A DNA stretch of 51,689 bases from Klebsiella phage LAPAZ, in sequence record PP706156.1; one strand, 5' to 3'. Every line of letters begins with the position of its first letter. Positions within the stretch are counted from its first letter, which is position 1. A model generated the notes under the pieces. The model did no database searches. It was not told where the DNA came from and saw only the letters and a list, made by a program, of their open reading frames with translations. Positions 1-49,000 of the stretch are shown here, piece after piece. Made by a program: the position numbers and the translations under genes.

Positions 1-323
1 GTAGGTTTCACCGGGCGGGCATTCACTACGCGGTAGCGCTCCCCGTCGACGTCGATTTCGTCACCTTCCATGATTGGCCCGTCGTGAGTGAAAAACCCGC
101 GCTTATCGCCAGCAAGGATGGTCTCGCCGTTGATATCACGATCATTTACATCCCTGATCGCCCCTTTGATTGTCGTCACCACCTCGCCGGGAATGATATC
201 CTCCCCGGTTTCCGGGTCGATGCCACCGCCAGCGCCTTTCGTGTACTTGTTGAACACGCCGTCAGCGTCGCTGAAGAACTTAATTCCCGCGCTTGCTCGT
301 GCCTGGATTGCTTTGTAGTCCAT
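1..323 (-). CDS. Head-tail joining / head-closure-like protein, N-terminal 107 codons. The gene crosses the circular junction; its last 18 codons and TAA stop lie at 51558..51612, giving 125 aa in total.
   Basis: ATG at 323..321, 2 nt after the TAG of the upstream gene. The reading frame continues without a stop through position 1 into 51612..51558 (…VKPTGTVVAYRPVLRRVATYG*). Sits in the neck-gene position. Confidence 0.5.
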   Translation of the reverse strand, partial: MDYKAIQARASAGIKFFSDADGVFNKYTKGAGGGIDPETGEDIIPGEVVTTIKGAIRDVNDRDINGETILAGDKRGFFTHDGPIMEGDEIDVDGERYRVVNARPVKP

Positions 324-10248: not shown

Positions 10249-10284
10249 TTGTTTAGCTCCTGATTGGTTCGCTTCAATAAGGCC

Positions 10285-10329
10285 ACTATATCAAATGGCC
10301 TTGCGGAAGTTTTAGCAAAAAGTGCTATT
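10285..10329 (-). promoter_or_regulatory. Conserved promoter cassette (box AATAGCACTTTTTGCTAAAA, 22-nt hairpin spacer, -10 TATAGT)
   Basis: Member of the repeat family; exact 22-nt box-to-(-10) spacing. Confidence 0.5.
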
Positions 10330-11077
10330 TGCCGTCGCGCCACAAACTAACCAGGGCGTCGGCCATCTGGCGGAGAACTTTCGCATGGGTCTGCGCATCA
10401 TCACCTTCCGGCGTGCGCATGGCTTCACGGATTTTCTCGATCGTGTTGTGGGCGGCGTTAAGCTCTGACTCAAGCTCTTTAACCCGGTCAGCGAGCGAGG
10501 CTTCTTTCGTGCCTTCCGGTTTCACGATCATCGACCGCGACAGCATACCCAGGGCTGCAACTGCATCGCTTGCCGACTTCACGCCCTCTTTGAAGTGCGC
10601 GGATTTTTCAGCGCCGATCTTAAATCCACGTGCAACGCCCCGCGACTCATCCCGCCCGAACATGTTCAGCACGCGCTCGGCCAGGGCTTCCAGATCCTGA
10701 TCTTTGTCGCGTTCGTGGGCCTTCAGGTCGGCAAAGAACAGGGGCGACTCAGTGGAGGTGATGCCGCCGAACATTGACGCCGAAGTGTGGATGGGATATT
10801 GCATCGCGCCGCCCACTAACCCGCCGAAGGAGAGTTCGCCACCAGCGAAACAGTTGTTGATTTGCAACTCGATGCTGAACTGACCGCCGCCGATGTAGTG
10901 CGAGTTGCGCGGGTTGACCGCGTACATGTTGCCTTCGTCATCGGTGATTTTGTACAGTGAATCCCCGGTGTATTTGGTGAAAGGCTCGGCCTCATAGCGC
11001 TTGCCTTTGGTGAATTTCGCGCCCACGCCAGCGGGAGAATCAGCGTTCGGGGTCAGGATGAATTTGTAGGTGCTCAT
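10325..11077 (-). CDS. Hypothetical protein (250 aa; beta-rich N-terminal domain, C-terminal coiled-coil)
   Basis: ATG at 11077 with SD AAAGAGGAAAAA. Preceded by the promoter cassette at 11101..11150. Confidence 0.55.
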   Translation of the reverse strand: MSTYKFILTPNADSPAGVGAKFTKGKRYEAEPFTKYTGDSLYKITDDEGNMYAVNPRNSHYIGGGQFSIELQINNCFAGGELSFGGLVGGAMQYPIHTSASMFGGITSTESPLFFADLKAHERDKDQDLEALAERVLNMFGRDESRGVARGFKIGAEKSAHFKEGVKSASDAVAALGMLSRSMIVKPEGTKEASLADRVKELESELNAAHNTIEKIREAMRTPEGDDAQTHAKVLRQMADALVSLWRDGK

Positions 11078-11106
11078 GATTTTTCCTCTTTGGTTGGTGT
11101 GGGGAT

Positions 11107-11150
11107 AGTATGCACCATCCCCGGACGGCGGTTTTAGCAATTCGTGCTAT
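11107..11150 (-). promoter_or_regulatory. Conserved promoter cassette (box TAGCACGAATTGCTAAAA, hairpin GGGGAT…ATCCCC, -10 CATACT)
   Basis: Member of the repeat family. Near-identical to the 19088 copy. Confidence 0.5.
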
Positions 11151-11638
11151 CAAAGCGCGTCTAGTTCGGCCTCAATGAATTCGTACCACTCGTGGCCGTT
11201 AACTGGATCGTGTTCGGTTCCATGCAGCCAGTCCGTATGCGCGGAACAGAATTCGCCGGATTTGTTGAAATAATAGTCGGCCCATGACCGCGCCCAATCG
11301 CCTACGCCAGCGAACGTGCCGAACTTGCGGATGTATGCGTCGGTGTAACCGCGCTCCTTCGCAATGCGCTTCAGTGCACGAACCAGCAACTTGCGCTGTG
11401 ATGCCTTCGATACTTTCCGCAGGTGGAAAAGCGCGTTTTCCGGCTCGCCACCAACACGGATGGTCAAGTCTTCGTCGGTGTCCAGCGGGTTGACGATGAA
11501 TTCGTTCAGGTATCCGCCCTGGATTACGTGCACCGTGCCTAGTGGTTCGTGAACCTCGACGGCATCGAATACGCAGCCGATAAGATGGCGTTCACGCTCG
11601 CGTGCTGCATTGACAACCATAAGTTTGATGGTGTTCAT
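11150..11638 (-). CDS. Hypothetical protein (162 aa)
   Basis: ATGA overlap with the upstream gene. Its TGA stop lies immediately next to the promoter box. Confidence 0.5.
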   Translation of the reverse strand: MNTIKLMVVNAARERERHLIGCVFDAVEVHEPLGTVHVIQGGYLNEFIVNPLDTDEDLTIRVGGEPENALFHLRKVSKASQRKLLVRALKRIAKERGYTDAYIRKFGTFAGVGDWARSWADYYFNKSGEFCSAHTDWLHGTEHDPVNGHEWYEFIEAELDAL

Positions 11639-11847: not shown

Positions 11848-11887
11848 GGTGTAACTCCTGATTGGTTTGTTTCGCTTCAGTAACGCC

Positions 11888-11932
11888 ACTTTACCAAATG
11901 ACGTTACGGCAGGTTTAACAAAAAGTGCTATT
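11888..11932 (-). promoter_or_regulatory. Conserved promoter cassette (box AATAGCACTTTTTGTTAAAC, -10 TAAAGT)
   Basis: Member of the repeat family. Confidence 0.5.
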
Positions 11933-12107
11933 CTTTGTCGCCAGTGAATGCGGCCCGACGACCACGGCGGAAGCCGTTAATCTCAGAGAGGCGGCTTACC
12001 CCGATGATAACCATCATCATTCCGATCATTTGCCAGCCATCTTCTTTGGCAACCACCAGACCACCCAGGAACAGAACCCAATACAGTGCAATCATTTTCT
12101 TGCTCAT
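11928..12107 (-). CDS. Small two-pass membrane protein (59 aa). Not in the ORF track, which omits ORFs under 60 aa.
   Basis: ATGA overlap with the upstream gene. Two hydrophobic segments (IALYWVLFLGGLVVA and MIGMMMVIIGV). Its TAG stop lies inside the promoter box GAATAGCAC. Confidence 0.45.
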   Translation of the reverse strand: MSKKMIALYWVLFLGGLVVAKEDGWQMIGMMMVIIGVSRLSEINGFRRGRRAAFTGDKE

Positions 12108-12732: not shown

Positions 12733-12760
12733 GGTAAATCTCCGTTGTTGGTGTGGGATA

Positions 12761-12804
12761 ATTATGCCCGATCCGTTGACCGGGCATTTACCAAAAAGTG
12801 CTAT
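12761..12804 (-). promoter_or_regulatory. Conserved promoter cassette (box AATAGCACTTTTTGGTAAAT, hairpin ATGCCCG…CGGGCAT, -10 CATAAT)
   Basis: Member of the repeat family. Confidence 0.5.
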
Positions 12805-13118
12805 TGCATGGTGCGAAGGTCGATTTGCGATTCTTTCCAGTCAGCGAATGGCTCCATCTCTCCGATTTCCTGCATTTTCGCATCGCAGCGCCCGCAGTCT
12901 ACCCAGGCTTTGTTTACGCCGATAATGCGAACATCTTCGGCGACTGACTCATACGCCCAAATCGCGCCGTCTTCGTCAACGGCAATCGTATTGGCCCACA
13001 CTGGCACGTCGACGGATTTTGCATCGCTGGTGCTGTGGATGTTAATCTGAAACGCCACAACCTGGCGCTGCGCAATGGTGGCAACAACCTTGCCGCCGGA
13101 TTTGATTTCGTTGGTCAT
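12801..13118 (-). CDS. Hypothetical protein (105 aa)
   Basis: ATGA overlap with the upstream gene. Confidence 0.45.
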   Translation of the reverse strand: MTNEIKSGGKVVATIAQRQVVAFQINIHSTSDAKSVDVPVWANTIAVDEDGAIWAYESVAEDVRIIGVNKAWVDCGRCDAKMQEIGEMEPFADWKESQIDLRTMQ

Positions 13119-13330: not shown

Positions 13331-13359
13331 GGTGATAGCCTCGTTTGTTGGTATGGGGT

Positions 13360-13405
13360 AACTATACCAGCCTACCCCGATCGAGTTTTAGCAATTCGTG
13401 CTATT
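13360..13405 (-). promoter_or_regulatory. Conserved promoter cassette (box AATAGCACGAATTGCTAAAA, -10 TATAGT inside the GGGGTA…TACCCC hairpin loop)
   Basis: Member of the repeat family. Confidence 0.5.
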
Positions 13406-13610
13406 CAACCACCTTGATTACCCGTTCCGGGCGGTGCGGTGCGCCGGATTTGTGGAGCCAGTAGCGGGCCTGCGTCAACTGGCCGAAGTGCTCGACCGTC
13501 ACCCACCAGAAGAAGGCAACACGACGCTGTGCTGCATACCACTCCACCGGACGCCCGAAGGCGTCAAGCGTCGCAATGCGCACGATCCTGAATTTGCGGT
13601 TAGAAACCAT
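13401..13610 (-). CDS. Hypothetical protein (69 aa, ATG at 13610)
   Basis: Internal ATG is preferred, because the longer track ORF overlaps its upstream neighbour by 110 nt. Confidence 0.35.
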   Translation of the reverse strand: MVSNRKFRIVRIATLDAFGRPVEWYAAQRRVAFFWWVTVEHFGQLTQARYWLHKSGAPHRPERVIKVVE

Positions 13611-14488: not shown

Positions 14489-14506
14489 GTTTACGCTCCT
14501 CTGTTT

Positions 14507-14561
14507 CGATGGGGTAATGATAGCGCATCACCCCGGTTGCGTTTTAACAAAAAGTGCTATT
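14507..14561 (-). promoter_or_regulatory. Conserved promoter cassette (box AATAGCACTTTTTGTTAAAA, -10 TATCAT)
   Basis: Member of the repeat family. Confidence 0.5.
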
Positions 14562-15051
14562 GCTGTGGGATCTGGAAGCAGAGTTCCCGCCAGTTGCGGT
14601 GCTCGCGGCCAGTGTTACCCAGGAAGCAGACTGTTCGCGCAATGTGGCCGTACTGCTCCGACCCGCGAAGCCATTCGCCCAGGTAATCCTTTGCGTCATC
14701 ATCTTTCGGCAGGCAGTGGCGCGGGCGCATCTTGAATGCGAAGACGTCGCCGTTACCGTCGATGGCAATGTGGGTGGCCCCGCCCTGGATGGCCGTCTGT
14801 GCGGTTGCGGTCGTGGTGCTTTTGTCGATGCCAGCCAGGAAGTTAGAGAATTCGTTCATGGTCATGCTCTTTTGCTCCGGCTCCGACTCGACAAGCAGAA
14901 GTGTATCGTTGCCAACCATCGCAAAGAAGATCGCCGCTGTCATGTTCGACTTCTTCACAATCTTGCCTTCGCGCTTGCGCATCATCACTGCGTCATCTTC
15001 CAGCCAGTAGATAAGGCCATTAAGGGTGTTGAGGTATTCGCGAGATTTCAT
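14557..15051 (-). CDS. Hypothetical protein (164 aa)
   Basis: Preceded by the cassette at 15080..15128. SD ACGGAG. Confidence 0.5.
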   Translation of the reverse strand: MKSREYLNTLNGLIYWLEDDAVMMRKREGKIVKKSNMTAAIFFAMVGNDTLLLVESEPEQKSMTMNEFSNFLAGIDKSTTTATAQTAIQGGATHIAIDGNGDVFAFKMRPRHCLPKDDDAKDYLGEWLRGSEQYGHIARTVCFLGNTGREHRNWRELCFQIPQQ

Positions 15052-15083
15052 TGTGGTGCTCCGTTGTTCGTTTCGATGGGGTT

Positions 15084-15128
15084 ACTATAGCAAGCTACCC
15101 CGATCGTGTTTTAACAAAAAGTGCTATT
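15084..15128 (-). promoter_or_regulatory. Conserved promoter cassette (box AATAGCACTTTTTGTTAAAA, -10 TATAGT)
   Basis: Member of the repeat family. Confidence 0.5.
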
Positions 15129-15339
15129 TGAAGTTGTGAACCTGGTTCCCGCCGCTGTGGTCGTCAATGTCAACGCCGTCGCAGGTGACGTAAAAGCCGC
15201 GAATGACGGTAAAGCGCCAGTGGCCCCGCCAGTGGAAGTACACGCCGAATTCACGGCCAGGCACCGCCTTCGTCGACTCCTTCGGGATCTGAAGCCCGGC
15301 GAAGGTGCGGAGTTGAAGCGTTCTGTTAAAGCGTGGCAT
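15124..15339 (-). CDS. Hypothetical protein (71 aa)
   Basis: Preceded by the cassette at 15368..15415. SD GAGAGGAG. Confidence 0.45.
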   Translation of the reverse strand: MPRFNRTLQLRTFAGLQIPKESTKAVPGREFGVYFHWRGHWRFTVIRGFYVTCDGVDIDDHSGGNQVHNFK

Positions 15340-15370
15340 GGTTGATGCTCCTCTCGTTGGTGATGTGGTG

Positions 15371-15415
15371 ATAATACCCGATCCCTCTGACCGGGTTTTA
15401 CCAAAAAGTGCTATT
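15371..15415 (-). promoter_or_regulatory. Conserved promoter cassette (box AATAGCACTTTTTGGTAAAA, hairpin ACCCG…CGGGT, -10 TATTAT)
   Basis: Member of the repeat family. Confidence 0.5.
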
Positions 15416-15716
15416 GCGGATAGTCCAGGCTAACGATATTGTCGGCACTGTCAAGCATCATCTGAAGCACGTTAGGCGCTCCGACGAACTCCGGTCGCGT
15501 TACTGCCTGGCCTGTTTCGGTAATGTGCTGGATGTATGACTCAGAATCTGGAAGAAATGACATCAAAAGCAAGTCACCTGTAACGCATTCTAAGGCGCTT
15601 GGATTTTCTGCCTGTGATGCATTGATTACTGCGTCGATAACGTCCTGCTCGCTTACTGGCTCGCTTCCCAGGCGCATTGGTGCCGCCGGGTCGGACTGGT
15701 CTTGATAGAGTTTCAT
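15411..15716 (-). CDS. Hypothetical acidic protein (101 aa)
   Basis: ATGA overlap with the upstream gene. Confidence 0.45.
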   Translation of the reverse strand: MKLYQDQSDPAAPMRLGSEPVSEQDVIDAVINASQAENPSALECVTGDLLLMSFLPDSESYIQHITETGQAVTRPEFVGAPNVLQMMLDSADNIVSLDYPQ

Positions 15717-16243
15717 ACCTTTTCCCCTTTGATTCTGGCTTTCAGTGCCATCGTGTACCCATTGTAAAGCAAGCCCTTTGGCATCACTTCGTCAACGATC
15801 GACAAAACCCTTTCCCGTTCAGAGTGAACGCCCTGCTGCCTGTAAGCATCGGCCTCCAGGTCACGTCCCGCGCTATCATCGAACTCAGTGGACACGATGA
15901 TTAACCCGGCTCCCAGGCTTACGCGCAAGACCTCGCCAGGCTCAAGGAGTTTTAGCAGTGGTCGGCGGAAGTGGTTATCGACGGGATGCACGCCGAATTT
16001 TTCCGTGAACTGATCTGCTGTCATCTGGATACGTCGCCCGCCATCCAGGAACATGCGCCGGATCTCCTTCGAGCGGTTGCCTGTGAACGTGCCTTCGTTG
16101 GCCCGGCCAGCCTGGTGATTGCCTTCCGGCTCCCCGAACGTGATCGATTGCAGCCATTCATGGTACGCGGCCTGCTTTTCTGCGTCGTACTGCATCCACT
16201 CGGACACGTCGACTTCTTCGAACTCATAACCTTTGTATTGCAT
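15713..16243 (-). CDS. Hypothetical protein (176 aa). First gene of the leftward early operon.
   Basis: ATG at 16243 with SD GGGGGAG. Immediately downstream of the AT-rich control region. Confidence 0.5.
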   Translation of the reverse strand: MQYKGYEFEEVDVSEWMQYDAEKQAAYHEWLQSITFGEPEGNHQAGRANEGTFTGNRSKEIRRMFLDGGRRIQMTADQFTEKFGVHPVDNHFRRPLLKLLEPGEVLRVSLGAGLIIVSTEFDDSAGRDLEADAYRQQGVHSERERVLSIVDEVMPKGLLYNGYTMALKARIKGEKV

Positions 16244-16433
16244 GTTTCTCCCCCACATTTGCGGCGTTTGTAAGCGTTTGGTAAGGCCATCTTACTTGCT
16301 CCAGGCCTTGCCGTCAAAGGGTTTGTGCGTGTGTGGTAAGATTCGTAAGCATCCCCCATATATGCCTATACCACCAGGCGGCGGCGGAACATCTAAAATT
16401 TATGGCTCTCGCAAGATGATTCCGGTAGCCATG

Positions 16434-16532
16434 CCGGGAGAAATCTTACCAAACATATATAGATAGAGAGAGTAATAATAATAATATTGTTATTTATCAT
16501 ATACTTATATATCTATTATAGGCTTATATTGG
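16434..16532 (+). repeat. ~100-bp AT-rich element, copy A, flanked by the GGTAAGAT-containing sequence CCGGGAGAAATCTTACC
   Basis: About 85% identical to the reverse complement of 33176..33276. Contains (GA)n and a (TAA)4 run. Confidence 0.8.
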
Positions 16533-16822
16533 TCACTTTTTGTGCAATTTTCAGGTAAGATTTTTCCTCCCCCACATTCCCACACGACGCAAATGTTGGT
16601 GAAACACAAGGCACGTTTTGGCAGGATTCGAACGGCGAATTATGTGCATAGTGCATGCATCTATGCAATTCGTTGCACATCATGAAACACTCCATCATCA
16701 CATTGCACAGAATGAAACAATCACAATCAATCATGAATCGTCAAAAGTAATCACCAGGAAGTCAGATGCAATCACAGCCTATTCCAATATTCCGAATGGA
16801 TGGAATAATCGACAATCGGAGG

Positions 16823-16867
16823 AATAGCACAAATAATCAAAATCTGGCTGGTGGGATCGGGTATAGT
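16823..16867 (+). promoter_or_regulatory. Degenerate promoter cassette (box AATAGCACAAATAATCAAAA, -10 TATAGT) for the rightward early operon
   Basis: Box-to-(-10) spacing of 22 nt is preserved. Leader CATCAACCAATCACGGAG. Confidence 0.45.
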
Positions 16868-16898
16868 CATCACATCAACCAATCACGGAGCAAGCACG

Positions 16899-17102
16899 AT
16901 GGCACACATGATGAAGAAGGCGGATTTTCTTAAACTGGCTGGTAAGTTGACTAACCCGCGCGTAAAGTCGCATCGTCACGGCGTGCTCCTGATGGATGGG
17001 AACAAGGTACAAGAGGAAATTTATGTTGCATCATCTTTCAACGAAGCCGGGATCATATCCGCAATGAACCAGGCGGAAAAATATAGAGGGTGGCTGGAAT
17101 GA
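16899..17102 (+). CDS. Hypothetical protein (67 aa). First gene of the rightward early operon.
   Basis: ATG at 16899 with SD GGAG. Downstream of the cassette at 16823..16867. Confidence 0.45.
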   Translation: MAHMMKKADFLKLAGKLTNPRVKSHRHGVLLMDGNKVQEEIYVASSFNEAGIISAMNQAEKYRGWLE

Positions 17103-17275
17103 AAACTAACGCTGTGTATGAAAGCCGTCAATCTGGCGTGCAATGGATGAAGAACGAGGACGGAGTGATCAGGAAACGCATGCCGGGATCTGACGAATGG
17201 ACGTTCAGCGCTGCAACTGAATTTCTGGTTGATATGTGCGTTTGCGACGGATTCGTTTTCGAGGTGAAGCCATGA
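17099..17275 (+). CDS. Hypothetical protein (58 aa)
   Basis: ATGA overlap with the upstream gene. Confidence 0.4.
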   Translation: MKTNAVYESRQSGVQWMKNEDGVIRKRMPGSDEWTFSAATEFLVDMCVCDGFVFEVKP

Positions 17276-17538
17276 ACAAGCAAGAGCTATTCGATCGCGT
17301 TGATGCCTTCATTTCGACGCATGGCTACGTCCCTGTGAATGTGCGCGTTCACTTCGATAAGAACTACGGCCTGGACAGGCAGACGGTCAGTCTTTGGCTT
17401 GTGGGGAAATACAGCGCCGACGAAACGCTTTGCATGGGGATTGATACCCTGTTTCTGAAACGATATCACAGCGCTGAACGGGCAGAAAAAGATGCTTCGC
17501 GGTTCCGCGCCCAAATCAAAAAGGAGTACCAACAATGA
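17272..17538 (+). CDS. Hypothetical protein (88 aa)
   Basis: ATGA overlap with the upstream gene. SD GAGGTG. Confidence 0.45.
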   Translation: MNKQELFDRVDAFISTHGYVPVNVRVHFDKNYGLDRQTVSLWLVGKYSADETLCMGIDTLFLKRYHSAERAEKDASRFRAQIKKEYQQ

Positions 17539-17864
17539 GAATCTTTACCCGTAGTAAGTGGGCCGTGGTTGAGGCTGCGGCGGAGCACAAAGAGCGCAAT
17601 CGTGTGGGGCGCGTTACCTGTCGTGCTACTCAACGTTGGCATGACTACCAGTCCGTCAAAGCGATGGTCGGTCAGTGCCTGGAGTTCGGGGAGTCTGGCG
17701 AGTTCACTATGAACATTTGGCACGAAAGCGCGTCGCATTATCCCCAGCGCGGGATATGGCGATACGGCCATACGGAGTACGAAACCACTCGCGCAACCGT
17801 CACATTTGGCGATCACATCCAGGCCGTGATTTACGGTGATGAAGTTCGGTTCCGCCTGGTGTAA
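17535..17864 (+). CDS. Hypothetical protein (109 aa)
   Basis: ATGA overlap with the upstream gene. Its TAA stop lies next to the promoter box. Confidence 0.45.
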   Translation: MRIFTRSKWAVVEAAAEHKERNRVGRVTCRATQRWHDYQSVKAMVGQCLEFGESGEFTMNIWHESASHYPQRGIWRYGHTEYETTRATVTFGDHIQAVIYGDEVRFRLV

Positions 17865-17908
17865 ATAGCACTTTTTGTTAAAAGCCCAGCGTGGGCTTTT
17901 GCTATTAT
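17865..17908 (+). promoter_or_regulatory. Conserved promoter cassette (box AATAGCACTTTTTGTTAAAA, hairpin GCCCAGCGTGGGC + TTTT, -10 TATTAT). The hairpin doubles as a terminator.
   Basis: Member of the repeat family. Confidence 0.5.
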
Positions 17909-17947
17909 CTCTTCATCGAAACGAAGCAGACAAAAGAGGCAAACATC

Positions 17948-18211
17948 ATGAGCAACGTACATATCCTGACCAAAGAAACTTCCAAAATCATGAGCCTGAT
18001 TTACAAAGCGCAGAAATGCCGCCGTGATAGCAAGTCTTCTAACATTGCAGGTGTACGCGCTTACGGTGAATACCTCGGAGTCATGGCTTGCGATATCAAC
18101 CTGATCTGTGATGCCATCATGGAAAGCAAAAAAGCTGACCTGTTCGATATGCTCGAAGAACTGGCTATTTGGTTCCGCAAAATGGATAAAATTGCTCAGG
18201 GCATCAAATAA
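17948..18211 (+). CDS. Hypothetical protein (87 aa)
   Basis: SD AAGAGG. Downstream of the cassette at 17865..17908. Confidence 0.45.
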   Translation: MSNVHILTKETSKIMSLIYKAQKCRRDSKSSNIAGVRAYGEYLGVMACDINLICDAIMESKKADLFDMLEELAIWFRKMDKIAQGIK

Positions 18212-18252
18212 GCACAAATTGCTAAACGCCGGGCCGCGAGGCCTGGTATCAT
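18207..18252 (+). promoter_or_regulatory. Conserved promoter cassette (box AATAAGCACAAATTGCTAAAC, -10 TATCAT)
   Basis: Member of the repeat family. Confidence 0.5.
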
Positions 18253-18714: not shown

Positions 18715-19092
18715 ATGAGAACAGTTACCATTTCGAACAGCTTTACCTACATGGTCGGCGCGCCGGATGTTGATATCCAGATCTCGCGTGAGATCGCCGC
18801 CCGTGACGTGACGGAAAAGTTTAAGGCGGCGGCAACTGCTGCAATCATCCACTATTACGGGCGTCACCCTGAAGACTTCAAAGCCGACGACACGCCGTTT
18901 GTCGTCAATACGGTTCCCGAAAGCAAGGCGTGGCAAATCAACGACAAGCAGACGGGGTATTTCATCTTCGGTGCAACACCTTGCAGGGTCGACAGCAACG
19001 ATATCGAGGTTCAGAGCCTGGAGGATGCCGCGCCGCGTGTTCAGCGCACAATCTACATCTGCCAGGATTACACGACCTGCGTTCCCGAATAG
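18715..19092 (+). CDS. Hypothetical protein (125 aa)
   Basis: SD GAGG. Its TAG stop lies inside the promoter box. Confidence 0.45.
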   Translation: MRTVTISNSFTYMVGAPDVDIQISREIAARDVTEKFKAAATAAIIHYYGRHPEDFKADDTPFVVNTVPESKAWQINDKQTGYFIFGATPCRVDSNDIEVQSLEDAAPRVQRTIYICQDYTTCVPE

Positions 19093-19132
19093 CACGAATT
19101 GCTAAAACAGAATTTGGGGATGGTGGCATACT
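19088..19132 (+). promoter_or_regulatory. Conserved promoter cassette (box AATAGCACGAATTGCTAAAA, hairpin GGGGAT…ATCCCC, -10 CATACT)
   Basis: Member of the repeat family. Confidence 0.5.
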
Positions 19133-19164
19133 ATCCCCACGCCAACAAACGAAGGAGTTACACA

Positions 19165-19972: not shown

Positions 19973-20665
19973 ATGAAAAAGCGCGTTGTGTGGTGCATGT
20001 TTGACGGTTCCGGGATTATGGGTCTGCCGTGGGCAATTCGCGGTTGCGATGTATATTGCTTTAACGCCGATTCCGGCGACCACGGCGAGTACAAAATCCG
20101 CATGGAGCATGCAAAAATCCAGTATGTCAACATCTGGATTGACAAAGATTTCGACGTGAAGCGCACGATCCTGGGCATCCCGGATCCTGACATTATTTTC
20201 GCTTTCCCGTCCTGCACGCTGTTAGCGCATAGCGGGGTGAAGCACGCCCGGCAGACTCAGGATGTTCTATCAGCCGCCGATGATGCGAAGATGATCGAGC
20301 AATTGGGCGACCAATATAATTGCCCCTGGATGGTAGAAAACCCGGTTGGCAAATTGTCGACGCTTTGGCGCAAGCCGGATTTTTATTTCCACCCTCGCGA
20401 CTTCGGCGGGTATGTTGCGCCGCATGAGGAAGTTTGGCACCCAAAAATGCCGCACTGCGACAATTACACGAAGAAAACGTGCATCTGGCACGGTAACGGA
20501 TTCGTGGAGCCGAAACGTTTATTACCGCCTGAAGGTGTGGAAGGCGTCGATTTCTTTTGGGCGTGGAAATTCCTGGGAGGAAAGTCTGAAAGAACAAAGA
20601 TGCTTCGCTCTATCACTCCGCGCGGATTCGCTCGCGCCGTGTTCCAGGCGAATTTTAATGAATAG
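19973..20665 (+). CDS. Putative DNA (cytosine-5)-methyltransferase-like protein, compact (230 aa)
   Basis: Motif I-like FDGSG. Motif IV-like FPSC (canonical is PCQ). ENV-like WMVENPVGK. SD GGTGAGGTG. Its TAG stop lies in the promoter box. Confidence 0.45.
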   Translation: MKKRVVWCMFDGSGIMGLPWAIRGCDVYCFNADSGDHGEYKIRMEHAKIQYVNIWIDKDFDVKRTILGIPDPDIIFAFPSCTLLAHSGVKHARQTQDVLSAADDAKMIEQLGDQYNCPWMVENPVGKLSTLWRKPDFYFHPRDFGGYVAPHEEVWHPKMPHCDNYTKKTCIWHGNGFVEPKRLLPPEGVEGVDFFWAWKFLGGKSERTKMLRSITPRGFARAVFQANFNE

Positions 20666-20705
20666 CACGAATTGCTAAACGTACCCGCTTAATTGCGGGT
20701 ATAGT
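20661..20705 (+). promoter_or_regulatory. Conserved promoter cassette (box AATAGCACGAATTGCTAAAC, hairpin TACCCGC…GCGGGTA, -10 TATAGT)
   Basis: Member of the repeat family. Confidence 0.5.
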
Positions 20706-21682: not shown

Positions 21683-23251
21683 ATGTTTTTAAATGACCGC
21701 GTGTCCCCACAAGATATTATTGCCATCGCAGAGAAGGAAGGCATCAGCCCCTTGCGCGTCGCCATCCGTGCGAACGGGTATCGCGACTCCGTTTCTTTCT
21801 GGCCCAAGCCGAAAGATATCGACGTAAACGCGGACAAGTATCCCACGATCTCGATCGCGAATGATTACGATATCGTCGGCAAGCTGGCGCTCAATGCTGC
21901 TCGCTCCGTTCAATTCCCGGAATCATCGGCTTATATGCATTTCCTCGGAACCGTGTCCGCCGCGATGATGGGTCGCTTTTGGGTGGAGTACCACGGCAGC
22001 GAGCAACCAACGACGCTTTACGTCATTACGTCGCAGCCGCCTTCCGCTGGTAAGTCTGCGATTAACTCGCTGGCTATCGATCCGATCGTCGCAGAGGTTG
22101 AGCGAATCAACGAGGCGCGCAAGAAAGAGCGCAAGAAAATCATGGCGAAGTTGTCCGCCAACAAGCAGGCCATGAAAGGAGAGTTATCGCAGTCCGATAT
22201 GGCGAAACTATTCGAAGACAAAGACGAACTTGAGGAGAAGTTAGAAAGCATGTGCGATCTGACGTTCCCCGTTTCCGATACCACGCCGGAAGGCCTGGCG
22301 AAAATCAACAATCGGCAAGGCAATTTTGCGGTTATCTCGGACGAAGCGACAGCGGTTAACAGCCTGTTAGGGATCACGTATGGCAACGACGGCGGCAAGA
22401 AGACGAACAGCGAACTGGTGTTGAAGGCGTGGGATAAGGGCCACGTATCGATCGCACGTTCCGACGTCAGTAACAATATGTCATTCGTCGCGCTGGGCTG
22501 TATTTGCGTAATTGCCCAGGATGAAACCATCGACGCCATCATGCAAGCTGGTTCTCGCGGTATCGGTGTATCAGAGCGTTTCCTTTTGGTTCGCGAGCAA
22601 ACGCGGTTAGGTGAGCGTGTGTTCATTGACGAAAACGGGAATTCGACCTATGAGCCGATCGACAAGTCTTTACGCGCTGATTACTTCCGCCTCATTCATG
22701 ACATTATGACGGAATCGTATATCAAGCTGGAAGTGACTGAAGCAGGCATGCGTCGGCTGAACAAGGCACGCCAGGAGTTAGAGCCGGAATTAGGCGACGG
22801 CGGGAAGTATTCGCATACGATGCTGCGCGGTGCGATGGGTAAATTCGATAAGCAGGTGATGCGCCTGGCGTCGGTAATCCACACGATCCGCAACTGGCAA
22901 CCTGGCGGCAAGCGCTCGAAGAAGATCGGAACCGAAACGATCGACGAAGCCATCATCATGTTTCATGAGTTGAGCAAAACGTATTTGTCGTCGGCTGATT
23001 CGTCCGGCTTCGCTGGTGAGGGCGCGGAGATTAAGGCGGTGTACGATGTTATCGCCAGCCGTGGCAAGCAGGCGAAAGGCGTGATGACGGTTCAGAGCAT
23101 CTATAACGCGTGCCGCAATCTGAAGATCTTCAAAGGTCAGTCCGGGGTGAGCAAAAGGATTAAGGAAAAATTGCTGCCGAAGATGGAGGAATTAGGGTTC
23201 ATCTGCGTGATTGATTCAGAGGTCTTTATTAACCCTTCGTTCATGAGGTAA
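21683..23251 (+). CDS. DUF3987-family P-loop ATPase (primase/helicase-associated), 522 aa
   Basis: Walker A embedded in YVITSQPPSAGKSAIN, which is the characteristic DUF3987 context. SD CAGGAG. Confidence 0.5.
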   Translation: MFLNDRVSPQDIIAIAEKEGISPLRVAIRANGYRDSVSFWPKPKDIDVNADKYPTISIANDYDIVGKLALNAARSVQFPESSAYMHFLGTVSAAMMGRFWVEYHGSEQPTTLYVITSQPPSAGKSAINSLAIDPIVAEVERINEARKKERKKIMAKLSANKQAMKGELSQSDMAKLFEDKDELEEKLESMCDLTFPVSDTTPEGLAKINNRQGNFAVISDEATAVNSLLGITYGNDGGKKTNSELVLKAWDKGHVSIARSDVSNNMSFVALGCICVIAQDETIDAIMQAGSRGIGVSERFLLVREQTRLGERVFIDENGNSTYEPIDKSLRADYFRLIHDIMTESYIKLEVTEAGMRRLNKARQELEPELGDGGKYSHTMLRGAMGKFDKQVMRLASVIHTIRNWQPGGKRSKKIGTETIDEAIIMFHELSKTYLSSADSSGFAGEGAEIKAVYDVIASRGKQAKGVMTVQSIYNACRNLKIFKGQSGVSKRIKEKLLPKMEELGFICVIDSEVFINPSFMR

Positions 23252-28984: not shown

Positions 28985-29016
28985 GATGTTTCTCCTTTCT
29001 TCGTTTCGATGGGAGA

Positions 29017-29061
29017 ATGATACCCGGCTTTCGCCGGGCAGTTTTAACAAAAAGTGCTATT
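29017..29061 (-). promoter_or_regulatory. Conserved promoter cassette (box AATAGCACTTTTTGTTAAAA, hairpin CCCGGC…GCCGGG, -10 TATCAT)
   Basis: Member of the repeat family. Confidence 0.5.
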
Positions 29062-29464
29062 TGATGGCATCGCAGAAAGCGATCTTGAATTGCTCGAATC
29101 CATAGGCCACGGCAGCGAACCCGCCACGGCTTCGGACGGCTGCGAGGAATTCCCGTTGCTCCTTGCTCACTGGCGATGCCTGGGATTTACCCTGGCGCTT
29201 TAGCTCAATGGCGGCGAACGGGTATTTGCCGCCCAGCCCAATCAGCACAAGGATATCGCTTACGCCTTTGAGTAATCCCATTTGATGATCTGCAACGGCG
29301 CTCGCCTTGTGCTTGCTGCCCTCGTTGACCGTATGCCAGAACAGATAATCGGGGTATTCGTAACGCAGCCACGAAACGCTGTTCATCTGGTCGATTTTTT
29401 CAAGCGGGCAAGCCTTTACAGGCCCGCCGTAATATTCGAGGTAATCCCCTTTGTCTGTAATCAC
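29057..29464 (-). CDS. VRR-NUC domain nuclease (PD-(D/E)xK), 135 aa
   Basis: GVSDILVL … AIELKRQG motifs. GTG start with SD GGAGG, overlapping the helicase TGA stop. Confidence 0.55.
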   Translation of the reverse strand: MITDKGDYLEYYGGPVKACPLEKIDQMNSVSWLRYEYPDYLFWHTVNEGSKHKASAVADHQMGLLKGVSDILVLIGLGGKYPFAAIELKRQGKSQASPVSKEQREFLAAVRSRGGFAAVAYGFEQFKIAFCDAIK

Positions 29465-31497: not shown

Positions 31498-31510
31498 GGT
31501 TAATCCTGAT

Positions 31511-31538
31511 TTGTCATTCGCATGGTTGCGTGTATAAT
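31511..31538 (+). promoter_or_regulatory. Near-consensus sigma70 promoter (TTGTCA-16-TATAAT) driving the rightward HTH-primase operon
   Basis: TTGTCA at 31511..31516 and TATAAT at 31533..31538, ~50 nt upstream of ATG 31588. Shares its -10 region with the divergent helicase cassette. Confidence 0.6.
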
Positions 31539-31577
31539 ACAGAGCAAATTTTATCGTGTTTAACAAAAAGTGCTGTG
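31534..31577 (-). promoter_or_regulatory. Promoter cassette for the helicase gene (box CACAGCACTTTTTGTTAAAC, -10 TATTAT). Back-to-back with the rightward sigma70 promoter.
   Basis: Box variant. The -10 overlaps the complement of the plus-strand TATAAT. Confidence 0.45.
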
Positions 31578-31587
31578 AGGTTAAATT

Positions 31588-31989
31588 ATGGAACAAATGG
31601 CAAAGGTAGACAAGCGAACTTTGAACGGCAATAACGGGACGTCACGCGGGAAAGATAAGAAGCCCCGCAAGAAGCCGACAGGCTATTACGTCCTGAAGGA
31701 TGAAGTAAGGGCGGGCCTGACTACCCGGATGGAATTGGTGATCGAGGCATACGGCGGCATCGCCAAAACAGCAAAGGAGTTGGGCGTTAGCATCCAGGTT
31801 GTTCAGCAGTGGATTAAGCGCGGCATGATTTCAGCCGATGGTGCTTACCTGGTTCATAAGAGTTACCGCCGCAATGACTGCAAAGGCTTCAGGGCTTCAT
31901 TTTGCCGCCCGGATCTCAGATTCGACAGCAACGGCAAGCCGATTACGCGCCGCTGCGACCGCCGCGAAATGCTTCGCGTAGTCCGATAG
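31588..31989 (+). CDS. HTH DNA-binding protein (133 aa). Candidate immediate-early regulator.
   Basis: HTH IAKTAKELGVSIQVVQQWIKRG and a basic N-terminus. First gene downstream of a near-consensus sigma70 promoter. SD GAGGT. Confidence 0.55.
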   Translation: MEQMAKVDKRTLNGNNGTSRGKDKKPRKKPTGYYVLKDEVRAGLTTRMELVIEAYGGIAKTAKELGVSIQVVQQWIKRGMISADGAYLVHKSYRRNDCKGFRASFCRPDLRFDSNGKPITRRCDRREMLRVVR

Positions 31990-33029: not shown

Positions 33030-33137
33030 TTAAAACGTGAACAAATTTTAGGTAAGATTGATAATTTCAGTCTTACCTTTTTTTATGCCCAAAATTCATC
33101 GACTTACCAACTGGTCGACCACTTTAAGTAAGATTAG

Positions 33138-33153
33138 GTAAGATGCATCTTAC
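33138..33153. promoter_or_regulatory. Perfect 16-bp palindrome GTAAGATGCATCTTAC (iteron/operator-like), copy 1
   Basis: Exact palindrome. Repeated at 33391..33406. Begins a ~45-bp direct repeat. Confidence 0.6.
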
Positions 33154-33175
33154 GTAAATTTCGCTCATTTTTTAA

Positions 33176-33276
33176 CCAATATCGCACCATAGAATATATA
33201 TAAGTATATGATATCTAACTATATTATTATTATTACTCTCTCTATATCTCTCTGTGTAGGTAAGATTTTCTCCGGG
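33176..33276 (-). repeat. ~100-bp AT-rich element, copy B (inverted relative to copy A)
   Basis: Reverse complement aligns to 16434..16532, including the flanking GGTAAGATTTTCTCCGGG. Confidence 0.8.
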
Positions 33277-33390
33277 TATATGTATTTTGCTTTGCGATTT
33301 CGGCCCAATTTTCCTGTGAATATTTACCTATAGGCATCTTACCATCTTACCGATTTGGGTTAACCGCATGAAATATATAAAGAAAATCAC

Positions 33391-33406
33391 GTAAGATGCA
33401 TCTTAC
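33391..33406. promoter_or_regulatory. Perfect 16-bp palindrome GTAAGATGCATCTTAC, copy 2
   Basis: Identical to copy 1. Followed by the repeated sequence CTTACGTAAATTTCGCTCA(C/T)TTTTT(G/A)ACCA. Confidence 0.6.
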
Positions 33407-33448
33407 TAAATCTTACGTAAATTTCGCTCACTTTTTGACCAGTTGGCG

Positions 33449-33492
33449 AATAGCACTTTTTGCCTTGCACCCGGAATCGTGATGCGTATACT
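33449..33492 (+). promoter_or_regulatory. Promoter cassette variant (box AATAGCACTTTTTGCCTTGCAC, -10 TATACT) for the exonuclease-ERF-SSB operon
   Basis: Box conserved. Spacing to the -10 is 21-22 nt. Confidence 0.45.
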
Positions 33493-33525
33493 TAACGCAA
33501 CGAAACCACAATAGGAGCAATATCA

Positions 33526-48606: not shown

Positions 48607-49000
48607 ATTGTGATTTTTTGTAGATCTGCTTGAGGTATTCACCCTCCAGGATCTGCAAGTCAAGCAATGCCGCTTCTCGATTGTCGATTTTATACAATTC
48701 AAAGAACATAGGCAATGTATTATAGTCCAGCCCCGTTGGGCCATTCATCCCAATGCGCCATTGCGTTTGCATGGCCTGGAATAGTTGCCAACTTTGGGCG
48801 GTCTGCTCATCGAAGAAAATTTCCTCTAAATCAGCCTCGTAATCCGATCGCCGTAAACCATACTCAGCAAGCTGGCGATCGGTTAACTCAGGCTGAAGCG
48901 TTAGATAAACAGCCCGCCTTAGACTTTTGCACGATGCCCGGCAAGCGCGGCCATGTACGTTTGAGGCAATGCCATGACAAAGGAAGGGTAATGCGAGCAC
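48605..49000 (-). CDS. Tail assembly chaperone gpT-like frame, expressed as a G-T fusion by -1 frameshift
   Basis: Overlaps the 3' end of the gpG-like ORF in the -1 frame. Slippery GCAAAAG lies 2 codons before the G stop. Confidence 0.55.
   Translation of the reverse strand: MLALPFLCHGIASNVHGRACRASCKSLRRAVYLTLQPELTDRQLAEYGLRRSDYEADLEEIFFDEQTAQSWQLFQAMQTQWRIGMNGPTGLDYNTLPMFFELYKIDNREAALLDLQILEGEYLKQIYKKSQ

What the first reader, a model, noticed from the sequence alone, without database searches (positions are those of the whole stretch)
16260..16900. Divergent early control region with GGTAAGAT sites, a TGCA-rich palindrome and AATCAC repeats
The 640-bp non-coding region between the two divergent early arrays carries four motifs: GGTAAGGCCATCTTAC (16282..16297), GGTAAGATTCGTAAGC (16335..), GAGAAATCTTACC (16438..) and GGTAAGATTTTTCC (16554..). 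These are the same motif seen at the putative origin in region B. It also carries a 36-bp imperfect palindrome, TGTGCATAGTGCATGCATCTATGCAATTCGTTGCACA, at 16644..16679. At 16690..16780 there are four or more AATCAC/ATCAC repeats. The region lies upstream of the rightward cassette promoter at 16823. Its density of symmetric sites suggests a multi-protein regulatory switch, such as an early/late or replication-coupled control, rather than a simple promoter pair.
Basis: seen in the sequence. Interest (0 to 1): 0.55.

Follow-up and report, generated by a model that had tools for sequence, protein, structure and literature searches.

The report
Conserved non-coding hub of T1-like phage
The 650-bp gap between two divergent early gene arrays of this Klebsiella T1-like phage is a strongly conserved non-coding hub that holds ordinary outer promoters, one of only two AT-rich, repeat-flanked modules in the genome (a candidate replication origin, so far unidentified in this family), and a repeat block at the place where relatives have their DNA-packaging end.

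Summary
The window is a complete Klebsiella Webervirus genome (T1-like, Drexlerviridae). The motifs exist, with offsets of 1-2 bp. No ORF in 16244-16898 stays open in 27 relatives, and nothing supports a structured RNA, yet the DNA is as conserved as the neighbouring gene.

GTAAGAT occurs 16 times in the genome. Fourteen copies lie in two intergenic regions: this one (A) and 33030-33525 (B, upstream of recE). A and B hold the genome's only two AT-rich cores and share a 109-nt inverted homology.

The same layout, an AT core flanked by short repeats, lies upstream of recE in all 51 Drexlerviridae loci examined, including T1. TLS shows it in its region A. The repeat sequence follows phage lineage, not host, so the binder is probably phage-encoded. 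The best candidate is a Cro-like HTH protein next to the primase gene.

The first "site" (16289) is really the -10 of a conserved sigma-70 promoter. The "palindrome" folds no better than shuffled sequence; it is a TGCA repeat cluster. The TGCA/AATCAC block lies where the T1 and TLS records open, the end mapped for TLS.

Verdict: a composite cis-acting hub of promoters, an origin-like module and a packaging-end block, not only a transcription switch. All functions are inferred. Interest is moderate.

The parts
16289..16317 (-). Leftward sigma-70 promoter PL for gene 15713-16243. The -35 is TTGACG (16312-16317), the spacer is 17 bp and the -10 is TAAGAT (16289-16294).
   Evidence: Found by the consensus scan. 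A promoter at this column is present in 24 of 28 genomes, with the -10 as TAAGAT or TATTAT and an invariant TTGACG. The TAnnnT conservation pattern is visible.
16335..16342 (+). GGTAAGAT site 2. It forms a 14-nt inverted repeat, TGTGTGGTAAGATT / AATCTTACCAAACA, with site 3.
   Evidence: I2. Conserved in 25 of 28 genomes.
16443..16450 (-). GGTAAGAT site 3, extended form GGTAAGATTTCTCC. It is on the left flank of the AT-rich core and faces outward.
   Evidence: Conserved in 27 of 28 genomes. Homologous to 33259-33272 in region B.
16451..16553 (.). AT-rich core, with a minimum GC of 0.16 in 80 nt. It is one of only two such segments in the genome and the most conserved block of the region.
   Evidence: low-GC scan. 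(identity 0.85 in distant relatives, against 0.79 for the adjacent gene). I1 and (109-nt inverted homology with 33147-33255; score 109 against a shuffle maximum of 34).
16554..16561 (+). GGTAAGAT site 4, extended form GGTAAGATTTTTCCTCCCCC. It is on the right flank of the AT-rich core and faces outward.
   Evidence: Conserved in 27 of 28 genomes.
16643..16722 (.).
   Evidence: D1. T1 has GTTGCATGGTGTGCAAC at position 1 of its record.
16719..16775 (+). AATCA(C) repeats, which read TGATT on the other strand. This is the candidate packaging-end (pac-proximal) block.
   Evidence: D4. The TLS record opens inside TGATT repeats and the T1 record just after them. PMC11447400 describes mapping of the TLS pac. 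PMC7718038 places the pac of T1-like phages in this UTR.
16781..16827 (.). Nested ATTCC / GGAAT inverted repeats: CTATTCC, TATTCC, GGAATA, GGAATAG.
   Evidence: The same four-copy arrangement is present in T1 (48745-48800) and in K62PH164C2.
16822..16867 (+). Rightward 'cassette'. It is a degenerate copy of the T1-family 21-nt repeat (GAATAGCACAAATAATCAAAA) plus the -10-like TATAGT at 16862-16867, upstream of gene 16899-17102.
   Evidence: D4. One search shows relatives carrying the canonical AATAGCAnnnnTTGnTAAAA. PMC11447400 describes the repeat.
33030..33525 (.). Region B, the second iteron/AT-rich module. It holds 10 GTAAGAT sites, including two perfect 16-bp palindromes GTAAGATGCATCTTAC at 33138 and 33391. 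It lies between the primase terminator and the recE cassette promoter.
   Evidence: There are 8-10 sites in every Webervirus locus examined.
31588..31989 (+). Cro-like HTH protein of 133 aa, the first gene of the primase operon. It is the candidate binder of the GTAAGAT sites.
   Evidence: phrog_2856; sub-threshold YdaS and P22_Cro hits. (the HTH segment is the most variable part). (AF2 pLDDT 86.5; best folds are Xfaso1 and N15 Cro).

Best explanation
Region 16244-16898 is the conserved non-coding hub that T1-like phages carry between their two divergent arrays of small early genes. It is a composite of four kinds of element.

(a) Two outward promoters lie at its edges. One is a consensus-like sigma-70 promoter for the leftward array. 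The other is a T1-family 'cassette' (21-nt repeat plus TATAGT) for the rightward array.

(b) In the centre-left is an AT-rich core of about 100 bp flanked by outward-facing GGTAAGATTTnCTCC sites, with a third site forming an inverted pair. This module exists twice in the genome; the second copy lies upstream of recE. The same layout recurs across Drexlerviridae with lineage-specific repeats. I infer that the repeats are iterons for a phage-encoded sequence-specific protein, most likely the Cro-like HTH protein encoded just before the primase. I infer further that the AT core is the DNA that this complex opens, so the two modules would be the replication origins of the phage.

(c) To the right is a block of TGCA and AATCA(C) repeats. 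It is unique in the genome and lies where the T1 and TLS records open (the end mapped for TLS). I infer that it is the packaging (pac) recognition and first-cut region.

(d) ATTCC/GGAAT inverted repeats, conserved as far as T1, sit next to the cassette. Their binder is unknown.

Shown: anatomy, conservation, uniqueness, family-wide recurrence, and the lineage (not host) specificity of the repeats. Inferred: every protein-DNA interaction, and both the origin and the pac functions.
For: Non-coding but constrained. No ORF is conserved. There is no Rfam hit and no covariation. Identity in 19 distant relatives is 0.74-0.85, against 0.79 for the adjacent gene.

Motif enrichment. GGTAAGAT occurs 9 times against 0.75 expected, and 14 of 16 GTAAGAT copies lie in A and B. 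Sites 2, 3 and 4 are conserved in 25-27 of 28 genomes.

Two modules only. The only two segments with GC of 25% or less are 16430-16569 and 33146-33274. The A/B local alignment scores 109 against a shuffle maximum of 34. T1 also shows A/B similarity, 66 against 37.

Family-wide recurrence. An AT core lies about 340-370 nt upstream of recE in nearly all 51 Drexlerviridae loci, with flanking repeats that differ by lineage: GTAAGAT, GGAGGAT, GGGACAAA, GATTACAC, GTGTAACA, GAGAACAA, GAAACAA. T1 and TLS show the same layout in their region A.

Most sites are not promoters. Ten sites in both orientations within 400 bp, two of them perfect palindromes, cannot all be promoters. The T1 and TLS repeats do not resemble a -10 hexamer.

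The module is not needed as a promoter. Region B sits between a terminator (33050-33078 followed by seven T) and recE's own promoter. In region A the PL and cassette promoters lie at the edges.

Not a host factor. Klebsiella phages of other lineages have 0 GTAAGAT sites upstream of recE.

Candidate binder. The HTH segment is the most variable part of an otherwise conserved family-wide protein (1.80 bits against 0.64 and 0.87). Its fold resembles all-alpha Cro proteins that bind palindromic operators. Lineages with similar recognition helices have similar repeats.

Packaging end. The TLS record starts inside TGATT repeats and the T1 record starts between such repeats and a TGCA palindrome, in the same block order as the window's minus strand. 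Papers place the pac of TLS, T1 and SU57 in this UTR.

Literature gap. No origin has been identified in TLS or SU57.
Against: No experimental data exist for any Webervirus here. The paper library holds no transcription-start data for the family and no pac coordinates for Webervirus.

Covariation of the HTH protein with the repeats is confounded by phylogeny. K62PH164C2 keeps GGTAAG/T sites although its recognition helix differs (TYQALQNW against SIQVVQQW). The DUF3987 helicase (21683-23251) has a variable C-terminus and is an untested alternative binder.

GGTAAGAT contains a good -10 hexamer (TAAGAT). Sites 2 and 3 carry an extended -10 TG, and the geometry around the AT core fits two back-to-back promoters with UP elements. 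A promoter or operator role is therefore not excluded, and in T7 and T4 promoters are themselves parts of origins (own knowledge).

TerS does not co-vary with the TGATT block. K62's TerS is closer to T1's (68%) than to the window's (54%), yet K62 largely lacks the block. TLS pac mapping by restriction digests cannot separate the TGATT block from the AT core 200 bp away.

GC skew follows transcription and adds nothing. There is no DnaA-box enrichment.
Confidence: 0.5

Rival explanations
1. Pure transcription-control region. The GGTAAGAT sites would be operators, or the -10 elements of a special promoter class. The AT core would supply UP elements for two back-to-back early promoters. A phage regulator binding the sites would switch early transcription off or middle transcription on, in both A and B.
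For: TAAGAT matches TAnnnT, and one copy (16289) clearly serves as the -10 of PL. Sites 2 and 3 carry TGn extended -10 motifs, and site 2 scores as a conserved extended -10 promoter in 22 of 28 genomes. The outward-facing sites lie 107 bp apart across the AT core, which suits two divergent promoters with UP elements. The best structural matches of the candidate binder are Cro repressors. In B, the sites at 33391-33416 lie just upstream of the recE cassette promoter.
Against: The equivalent repeats in T1 (GTGTAACA, CGATTAAC), TLS (CGTGAACA) and other lineages do not look like -10 elements. Face-to-face palindromes and ten sites in 400 bp make no sense as promoters. None of the core-flanking sites has a usable -35. 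Both flanking operons have separate promoters close to their first genes. A regulatory array would not by itself explain a conserved AT core of about 100 bp kept alike in two copies within each lineage.
Confidence: 0.3
2. The shared AT-rich, repeat-flanked module is a DNA-transaction site other than an origin. It could be the true pac or terminase entry site, or a preferred entry point for the recE/erf recombination system that drives concatemer formation.
For: The module lies within about 200-300 bp of the T1 and TLS record starts, inside the resolution of restriction mapping. The second copy always accompanies recE. Similarity between A and B within each genome could reflect gene conversion.
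Against: Two pac-like sites 17 kb apart would give two packaging series. The TLS paper describes a single sub-molar pac fragment, and from memory the classical T1 data show the same. The TGCA/TGATT block, not the module, is unique to region A. No terminase-related specificity change tracks the repeats.
Confidence: 0.1
3. The sites bind a host regulator. TAAGATGCATCTTA resembles the RcsB/RcsAB box TN(G/A)GAN4TC(T/C)NA. This consensus is recalled from memory and was not verified here.
For: The two palindromes in B fit that recalled consensus at every specified position. The host is a capsulated Klebsiella.
Against: Klebsiella phages of other Drexlerviridae lineages (KLB26, K50_evo33) have no GTAAGAT in the equivalent region. 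Instead they carry the repeat type of their own lineage. Coliphages T1 and TLS each have different repeats in the same layout. The repeat therefore follows phage lineage, not host.
Confidence: 0.03
4. The conservation reflects an unannotated small protein gene or a structured non-coding RNA.
For: Some GenBank relatives annotate two small ORFs here, of 35 aa and 72 aa ('putative membrane protein'). The region is 86% identical on average across 17 genomes.
Against: All seven candidate ORFs are broken by stops or frameshifts in many relatives. There is no Rfam family. RNAalifold gives a covariation term of -0.12 kcal/mol, and only 1 of 47 pairs shows a compensatory change.
Confidence: 0.03

Closest known systems
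Two-site iteron origins of phages and satellites: SPP1 oriL/oriR bound by G38P; P4 ori plus crr bound by the alpha protein; SaPI ori with iterons flanking an AT-rich region. All are recalled from own knowledge (Missich 1997; Ziegelin 1993-95; Ubeda 2007-12).
   Same: Short repeats of 7-8 bp lie in direct and inverted orientation around an AT-rich stretch. There are two separate copies in one genome. The repeat sequence is specific to each lineage. The elements lie among replication genes (primase, helicases, recE/erf/ssb).
   Different: No initiator binding or initiation has been shown here. The candidate binder is a Cro-type HTH protein rather than a G38P, alpha or Rep-type initiator. One copy sits in the early control and packaging-end region rather than inside or next to the initiator gene. 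Copy number is uneven (3 conserved sites in A, 10 in B).
The terminal untranslated region of T1, TLS and SU57 that holds pac (PMC11447400, PMC7718038; GenBank AY216660, AY308796).
   Same: It has the same position between the two divergent small-gene arrays. The order of blocks is also the same: cassette repeat, inverted repeats, TGATT/TGCA repeats, iterons, AT core, iterons, sigma-70 promoter.
   Different: The published descriptions mention only pac (assigned in TLS from an AGATTT match to P22 pac) and the 21-nt repeats. They state that no origin-like repeats were found. Webervirus uses GGTAAGAT instead of the T1 and TLS repeats. Its recE block, with module B, is inverted relative to T1.
T1-family intergenic 21-nt repeat aaATAGCACnnnTTGnTAAAA (PMC11447400).
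   Same: [quoted passage not shown] It matches the 5' half of the repeat, and relatives carry the canonical form at the same column.
   Different: In the window this copy has lost the TTGnTA part (CAAATAATCAAAA). It is only the right-hand edge of the finding and does not explain the rest.
Lambda-type divergent control region (OR/OL with Cro and CI).
   Same: A Cro-fold HTH protein and palindromic 16-bp sites, GTAAGAT-GC-ATCTTAC, are present.
   Different: The conserved sites do not overlap conserved promoters. The sites flank an AT-rich core and are duplicated 17 kb away. The phage is virulent and has no repressor/integrase module.

Membership tests
Iteron-type replication origin | A cluster of short repeated binding sites (iterons) enriched far above chance | tested here: met
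   GGTAAGAT occurs 9 times against 0.75 expected. Fourteen of 16 GTAAGAT copies lie in two intergenic regions. The sites are conserved in 25-27 of 28 relatives.
Iteron-type replication origin | An adjacent AT-rich stretch that could serve as the unwinding element | tested here: met
   The only two segments with GC of 25% or less in 80 nt are 16430-16569 and 33146-33274, each flanked by sites. An AT core is present in 51 of 51 family loci upstream of recE.
Iteron-type replication origin | A cognate initiator whose DNA-recognition part co-varies with the iterons | tested here: inconclusive
   The HTH segment of the Cro-like protein is its most variable part, and similar helices go with similar repeats. 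However, K62PH164C2 has the same repeat with a different helix, and phylogeny confounds the test.
Iteron-type replication origin | Replication initiates there, or the fragment supports replication | not testable with these tools
   This needs nascent-strand or marker-frequency mapping, or an ori-plasmid assay.
pac site of headful-packaging T1-like phages | Lies at the position of the mapped genome end in relatives | tested here: met
   The T1 and TLS records open inside the homologous TGATT/TGCA block. The papers place pac in this UTR.
pac site of headful-packaging T1-like phages | Unique in the genome | tested here: met
   The densest TGCA and AATCA clusters of the whole genome are both here and nowhere else.
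pac site of headful-packaging T1-like phages | Recognition repeats change together with the small terminase | tested here: not met
   TerS identity is 54% for window-K62, 50% for window-T1 and 68% for K62-T1. T1 shares TGATT repeats with the window, yet K62 largely lacks them. With only three genomes this is weak evidence against.
pac site of headful-packaging T1-like phages | First terminase cut and a sub-molar fragment map here in this phage | not testable with these tools
   No reads or virion DNA are available. Webervirus papers report only 'headful' packaging.
Divergent sigma-70 promoter/operator switch | Conserved -35/-10 promoters facing both operons | tested here: met
   PL is TTGACG-17-TAAGAT/TATTAT in 24 of 28 genomes. 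The rightward cassette with TATAGT/TATGAT is conserved.
Divergent sigma-70 promoter/operator switch | Operators overlap the promoters they control | tested here: not met
   The only overlap (16289) is not conserved as a GTAAGAT site. The three conserved sites lie 20-270 bp away from PL and 260-490 bp from the cassette -10.
T1-family 21-nt repeat (aaATAGCACnnnTTGnTAAAA) | Match to the consensus, intergenic, in the direction of transcription, about 76 nt before a start codon | tested here: met
   The element at 16822-16842 lies 77 nt before the ATG at 16899. Its 5' half matches, and its 3' half is degenerate in the window but canonical in relatives.
Structured non-coding RNA | Match to a known family or covariation-supported structure | tested here: not met
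   Rfam gives 0 hits. The covariation term is -0.12 and there is 1 compensatory pair among 47.

The most novel reading that the evidence does not exclude
Drexlerviridae (T1-like phages), for which no replication origin has been identified, would carry two origins of one design. Each is an AT-rich core of about 100 bp flanked by lineage-specific 7-8-bp iterons. One lies in the packaging-end/early control region and one upstream of recE. Both would be recognised by the family-wide Cro-like HTH protein encoded at the head of the primase operon, whose recognition helix has diversified together with the iterons. In Webervirus the iteron is GGTAAGAT.
Probability: 0.35. Interest if true: 0.6.

Novelty: new member of a known kind. 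Interest (0 to 1): 0.45.

Why it matters
Weberviruses are among the phages most often isolated for therapy against Klebsiella pneumoniae, and T1 is a classic model. Yet the cis-acting DNA of the family is almost unmapped. The TLS archetype paper states that no origin-like repeats were found, and it lists the intergenic repeats among its open questions. This analysis gives exact, conserved and testable coordinates. It identifies two candidate origins with a defined iteron and a named candidate binder. It also identifies a candidate packaging-start block and the two outer promoters of the early region. Those coordinates make origin mapping, pac mapping and engineering directly approachable, for example choosing safe insertion points, building minimal replicons, or avoiding transduction-prone pac mimics. 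If instead the module proves to be a regulatory array, it would define the operator of an uncharacterised family-wide Cro-like regulator.

Tried and rejected
- **Small ORFs inside the region.** I tested 16516-16734(-), annotated as a membrane protein in some records, along with 16618-16827(+), 16393-16500(-) and others. All are broken in relatives.
- **tRNA remnant.** I suspected one from GGATTCGAAC. ARAGORN found no tRNA, and the motif is GCTTCGATCGGC in half of the relatives.
- **Known or new structured RNA.** Rfam found nothing and there is no covariation.
- **Cruciform palindrome at 16643-16679.** The fold z-score is -0.77 and the arms do not co-vary.
- **Host RcsB/RcsAB box.** The resemblance is recalled from memory. 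I rejected it because the repeat follows phage lineage, not host.
- **Host DnaA boxes.** They are not enriched; there are 54 matches against 82 expected genome-wide and only one in region A.
- **GC skew as an origin indicator.** It simply follows gene orientation.
- **TerS/pac covariation using K62PH164C2.** It did not support the pac assignment.
- **DUF3987 helicase as iteron binder.** The locus search reached only Webervirus and T1-like genomes, so covariation could not be tested. Domain-wise identity to K62 was uninformative.
- **Literature.** I looked for the motif, for Webervirus promoters, for transcription-start maps of Drexlerviridae and for Webervirus pac coordinates. Nothing specific turned up. 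The T1 genome paper is not held in the library.
Full report
**What the window is.** BLAST of 15700-17300 finds 350 phage records, 344 of them Klebsiella phages of the genus Webervirus (Drexlerviridae, T1-like), at up to 96% identity. Bases 1-77 repeat at 51613-51689, so the window is a whole circularly closed genome. The finding lies between gene 15713-16243 on the minus strand (phrog_10392, function unknown) and gene 16899-17102 on the plus strand. These are the first genes of two divergent arrays of small genes.

**The observation.** All the described strings exist. GGTAAGGCCATCTTAC is at 16280-16295, 2 bp left of the stated position. GGTAAGAT is at 16335 (+), 16443 (-) and 16554 (+). The 37-nt TGCA-rich string is at 16643-16679. 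AATCAC is at 16719, 16749 and 16770.

- GGTAAGAT occurs 9 times in the genome against 0.75 expected.
- The 7-mer GTAAGAT occurs 16 times. Fourteen copies lie in two intergenic regions that make up 2% of the genome. These are region A (this finding) and region B (33030-33525), between the primase and recE/exonuclease VIII genes.
- The genome-wide densest clusters of TGCA, AATCA and ATTCC/GGAAT all fall within 16645-16825.

**The region is truly non-coding but constrained.**
- I extracted the homologous region from 27 IMG/VR relatives. None of seven candidate ORFs stays open in them, including two that some GenBank records annotate.
- Rfam finds nothing, ARAGORN finds no tRNA, and RNAalifold finds no covariation.
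- In the 19 more distant relatives the blocks of the region are 74-85% identical to the window. The adjacent protein gene is 79% identical. The first rightward gene is not homologous at all.
- The constraint is therefore on the DNA sequence itself.

**Corrections to the motif list.**
- In relatives the site at 16289 reads TAAGAT, TATTAT or TAATCT. It always lies 17 bp from an invariant TTGACG. This is the TAnnnT signature of a sigma-70 -10 hexamer, so it marks the leftward promoter PL rather than a conserved GTAAGAT site.
- The other three sites are conserved in 25-27 of 28 genomes.
- Sites 3 and 4 flank an AT-rich core (16451-16553), face outward, and share the longer form GGTAAGATTTnCTCC.
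- Site 2 forms a 14-nt inverted repeat with site 3.
- The 'palindrome' folds no better than shuffled sequence (z = -0.77), and its arms do not co-vary. It is a cluster of TGCA(T/A) units with 20-nt direct repeats.

**Two modules per genome.**
- The only two stretches of the genome with GC of 25% or less are 16430-16569 and 33146-33274.
- They share a 109-nt inverted homology of 75% identity. The local alignment scores 109 against a shuffle maximum of 34.
- Region B carries 10 GTAAGAT sites in both orientations, including two perfect 16-bp palindromes GTAAGATGCATCTTAC.
- Region B begins with a terminator-like hairpin followed by seven T, built from two half-sites. It ends with recE's own cassette promoter.

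**Family-wide recurrence.**
- T1 has the same layout in mirror orientation. Its region A shows iterons (CGATTAAC three times, GTTAATC, GTGTAACA), an ATATATA-rich core, more iterons, then a TTGACA promoter. A second core upstream of recE is flanked by GTGTAACA/TGTTACA.
- The two T1 modules also resemble each other (score 66 against a shuffle maximum of 37).
- TLS shows CGTTCAC / CGTGAACACGTGAACA around an AT core.
- In 51 Drexlerviridae loci anchored on recE, the most AT-rich 80-nt stretch (GC 0.10-0.25) lies about 340-370 nt upstream of recE in nearly all. The flanking repeats differ by lineage: GTAAGAT, GGAGGAT, GGGACAAA, GATTACAC, GTGTAACA, GAGAACAA, GAAACAA.
- The modules are thus alike within a genome and different between lineages. 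That fits two sites read by one lineage-specific factor.

**Host or phage factor.** TAAGATGCATCTTA resembles the RcsB box as I recall it. However, Klebsiella phages of other Drexlerviridae lineages (KLB26 on Klebsiella sp. M5a1; K50_evo33 on K. pneumoniae) have no GTAAGAT there and carry the repeat type of their own lineage. K62PH164C2, a sister lineage of Webervirus, has GGTAA(G/T) sites in both of its modules. The repeat follows phage ancestry, so the binder is most likely phage-encoded.

**Candidate binder.**
- The 133-aa protein encoded at 31588-31989 heads the primase operon and is present across the family.
- Its helix-turn-helix segment is the most variable part of an otherwise well conserved protein: 1.80 bits, against 0.64 for the N-terminal part and 0.87 for the C-terminal part.
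- The AlphaFold model (pLDDT 86.5) best matches all-alpha Cro proteins of Xfaso 1 and N15, which bind palindromic operators as dimers.
- Lineages with similar recognition helices have similar repeats.
- This is confounded by phylogeny, and K62 keeps the repeat with a different helix, so the assignment is tentative.
- The DUF3987 helicase (21683-23251) is an alternative that I could not test.

**Promoter or origin.** TAAGAT is a plausible -10, and sites 2 and 3 carry an extended -10 TG, so some promoter or operator activity cannot be excluded. Four points argue that the module is not mainly a promoter:
- The equivalent repeats of T1, TLS and other lineages are not -10-like.
- Ten sites in 400 bp, including face-to-face palindromes, cannot all be promoters.
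- There is no usable -35.
- Both modules are flanked by separate promoters next to the first genes.

Iterons around an AT-rich core, in two copies, among primase, helicase and recombination genes, is the anatomy of SPP1 oriL/oriR, P4 ori/crr and SaPI origins (own knowledge). The TLS and SU57 papers report that no origin could be found. I therefore rate 'replication origin' as the most likely function of the module, at about 0.4, ahead of 'regulatory array' at about 0.3.

**The right half.**
- Read on the minus strand, the window shows the same order of blocks as T1 and TLS: 5' UTR and -10 of the first gene, the 21-nt cassette repeat, ATTCC/GGAAT inverted repeats (TLS has a different repeat at this place), then TGATT and TGCA repeats, then the iteron module.
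- The T1 record opens between its TGTGATT repeats and GTTGCATGGTGTGCAAC. The TLS record opens inside GTGATTGAAATTGATTTGATTTGATT.
- The TLS start was placed by restriction mapping of the sub-molar pac fragment. The SU57 paper states that the pac of T1 and other T1-like phages lies in this UTR.
- The AATCAC/TGCA block of the window is therefore the positional and sequence equivalent of the packaging end.
- Caveats: the mapping resolution cannot exclude the nearby AT core. K62PH164C2 largely lacks the block although its TerS is closer to T1's. No Webervirus pac coordinates are published in the library.

**The cassette.** The element at 16822-16842 belongs to the 21-nt repeat aaATAGCACnnnTTGnTAAAA already described for TLS, T1, Rtp and Rogue1. 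The function of that repeat is listed as an open question. The window copy is degenerate in its 3' half, and relatives have the canonical form.

**Verdict.** The evidence, however, points to a composite of outer promoters, one of two origin-like iteron/AT-rich modules, and a packaging-end repeat block, rather than to an early/late transcription switch. Every function is inferred. The anatomy, conservation and family-wide pattern are shown. The kind of element is known; its recognition in this family appears to be new.

Noticed in passing
window 10264-10338, 11087-11153, 11867-11941, 12754-12807, 13341-13406, 14496-14563, 15063-15137, 15353-15417, 28996-29070 (minus-strand genes); 17863-17929, 18207-18226, 19087-19152, 20659-20679, 33447-33495 (plus-strand genes): There are at least 14 copies of the T1-family 21-nt repeat (AATAGCACnnnTTGnTAAAA). 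In most copies it is followed by a G+C-rich hairpin (for example GGGGTA..TACCCC) that encloses a TATAGT-like hexamer. That hexamer lies 22 nt after TTGnTA, too far for TTGnTA to act as a sigma-70 -35. The repeat is known (PMC11447400) but its function is open. The hairpin around the -10 is not mentioned in the passages of that paper I read.
   Followed up: partly
window 33050-33085: The terminator-like hairpin after the primase gene is built from two GTAAGA(T/C) half-sites in inverted orientation, followed by seven T. The same sequence could therefore be both a terminator and a binding site.
   Followed up: partly
window 16899-17102: The first rightward gene is not homologous to the gene at that position in any of the 27 IMG/VR relatives (about 26% aligned identity), although the upstream non-coding DNA is conserved. 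A mosaic junction lies at the cassette. Locus L032 shows the converse on the other side: the adjacent leftward gene is 77% identical while the region-A blocks from 16331 on are 90-100% identical.
   Followed up: partly
window 16249-16260, 16352-16361, 16567-16578: A C-rich box, TCCCCCACATT, occurs three times. On the minus strand it reads AATGTGGGGGAG. One copy is the Shine-Dalgarno region of gene 15713-16243. The copy after GGTAAGAT site 4 has no start codon behind it.
   Followed up: no
window 16381-16432: A conserved block, GCGGCGGAACATCTAAAATTTATGGCT, is followed by a short inverted repeat (ATGGCT..AGCCAT). The pairing partners of that repeat differ between relatives (TTATGG..CCATAA). It could be a small hairpin in a leftward transcript.
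   Followed up: no
window 21683-23251: This is a second, DUF3987-type helicase (phrog_2373), present in addition to the SF2 helicase at 29461-31596. It is flanked by two small proteins that T1's annotation calls HTH-like. Its last 40 residues are the least conserved part. It is a possible origin-binding helicase.
   Followed up: partly
window 31588-31989 and homologues P0001-P0090: The Cro-like protein has an invariant basic N-terminal motif (DKRxxNGNNGTxRGxDKKPRKR) and a conserved Cys-containing C-terminal domain (GFRASFCRPDLRFDxNGK..RC). Neither has a Pfam match. The family appears restricted to phage contigs of about 50 kb.
   Followed up: partly
L169, L174-L176 (Klebsiella phage vB_Kpn_K62PH164C2): This is a mosaic genome. 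Its replication module and GGTAAG repeats are Webervirus-like. Its terminase genes are much closer to T1's (TerS 68%, TerL 81%) than to the window's (54%, 65%). In place of the TGCA/TGATT block it has GTCATTTTGAC twice.
   Followed up: partly
window 30771 and 50742: These are the only two GTAAGAT copies outside regions A and B. Both lie inside coding sequence (the helicase gene and a gene on the minus strand). They are probably chance occurrences.
   Followed up: no
window 1-77 and 51613-51689: An exact 77-bp direct repeat lies at the two ends of the window. It is the overlap of a circularly closed assembly, not a biological terminal repeat.
   Followed up: yes
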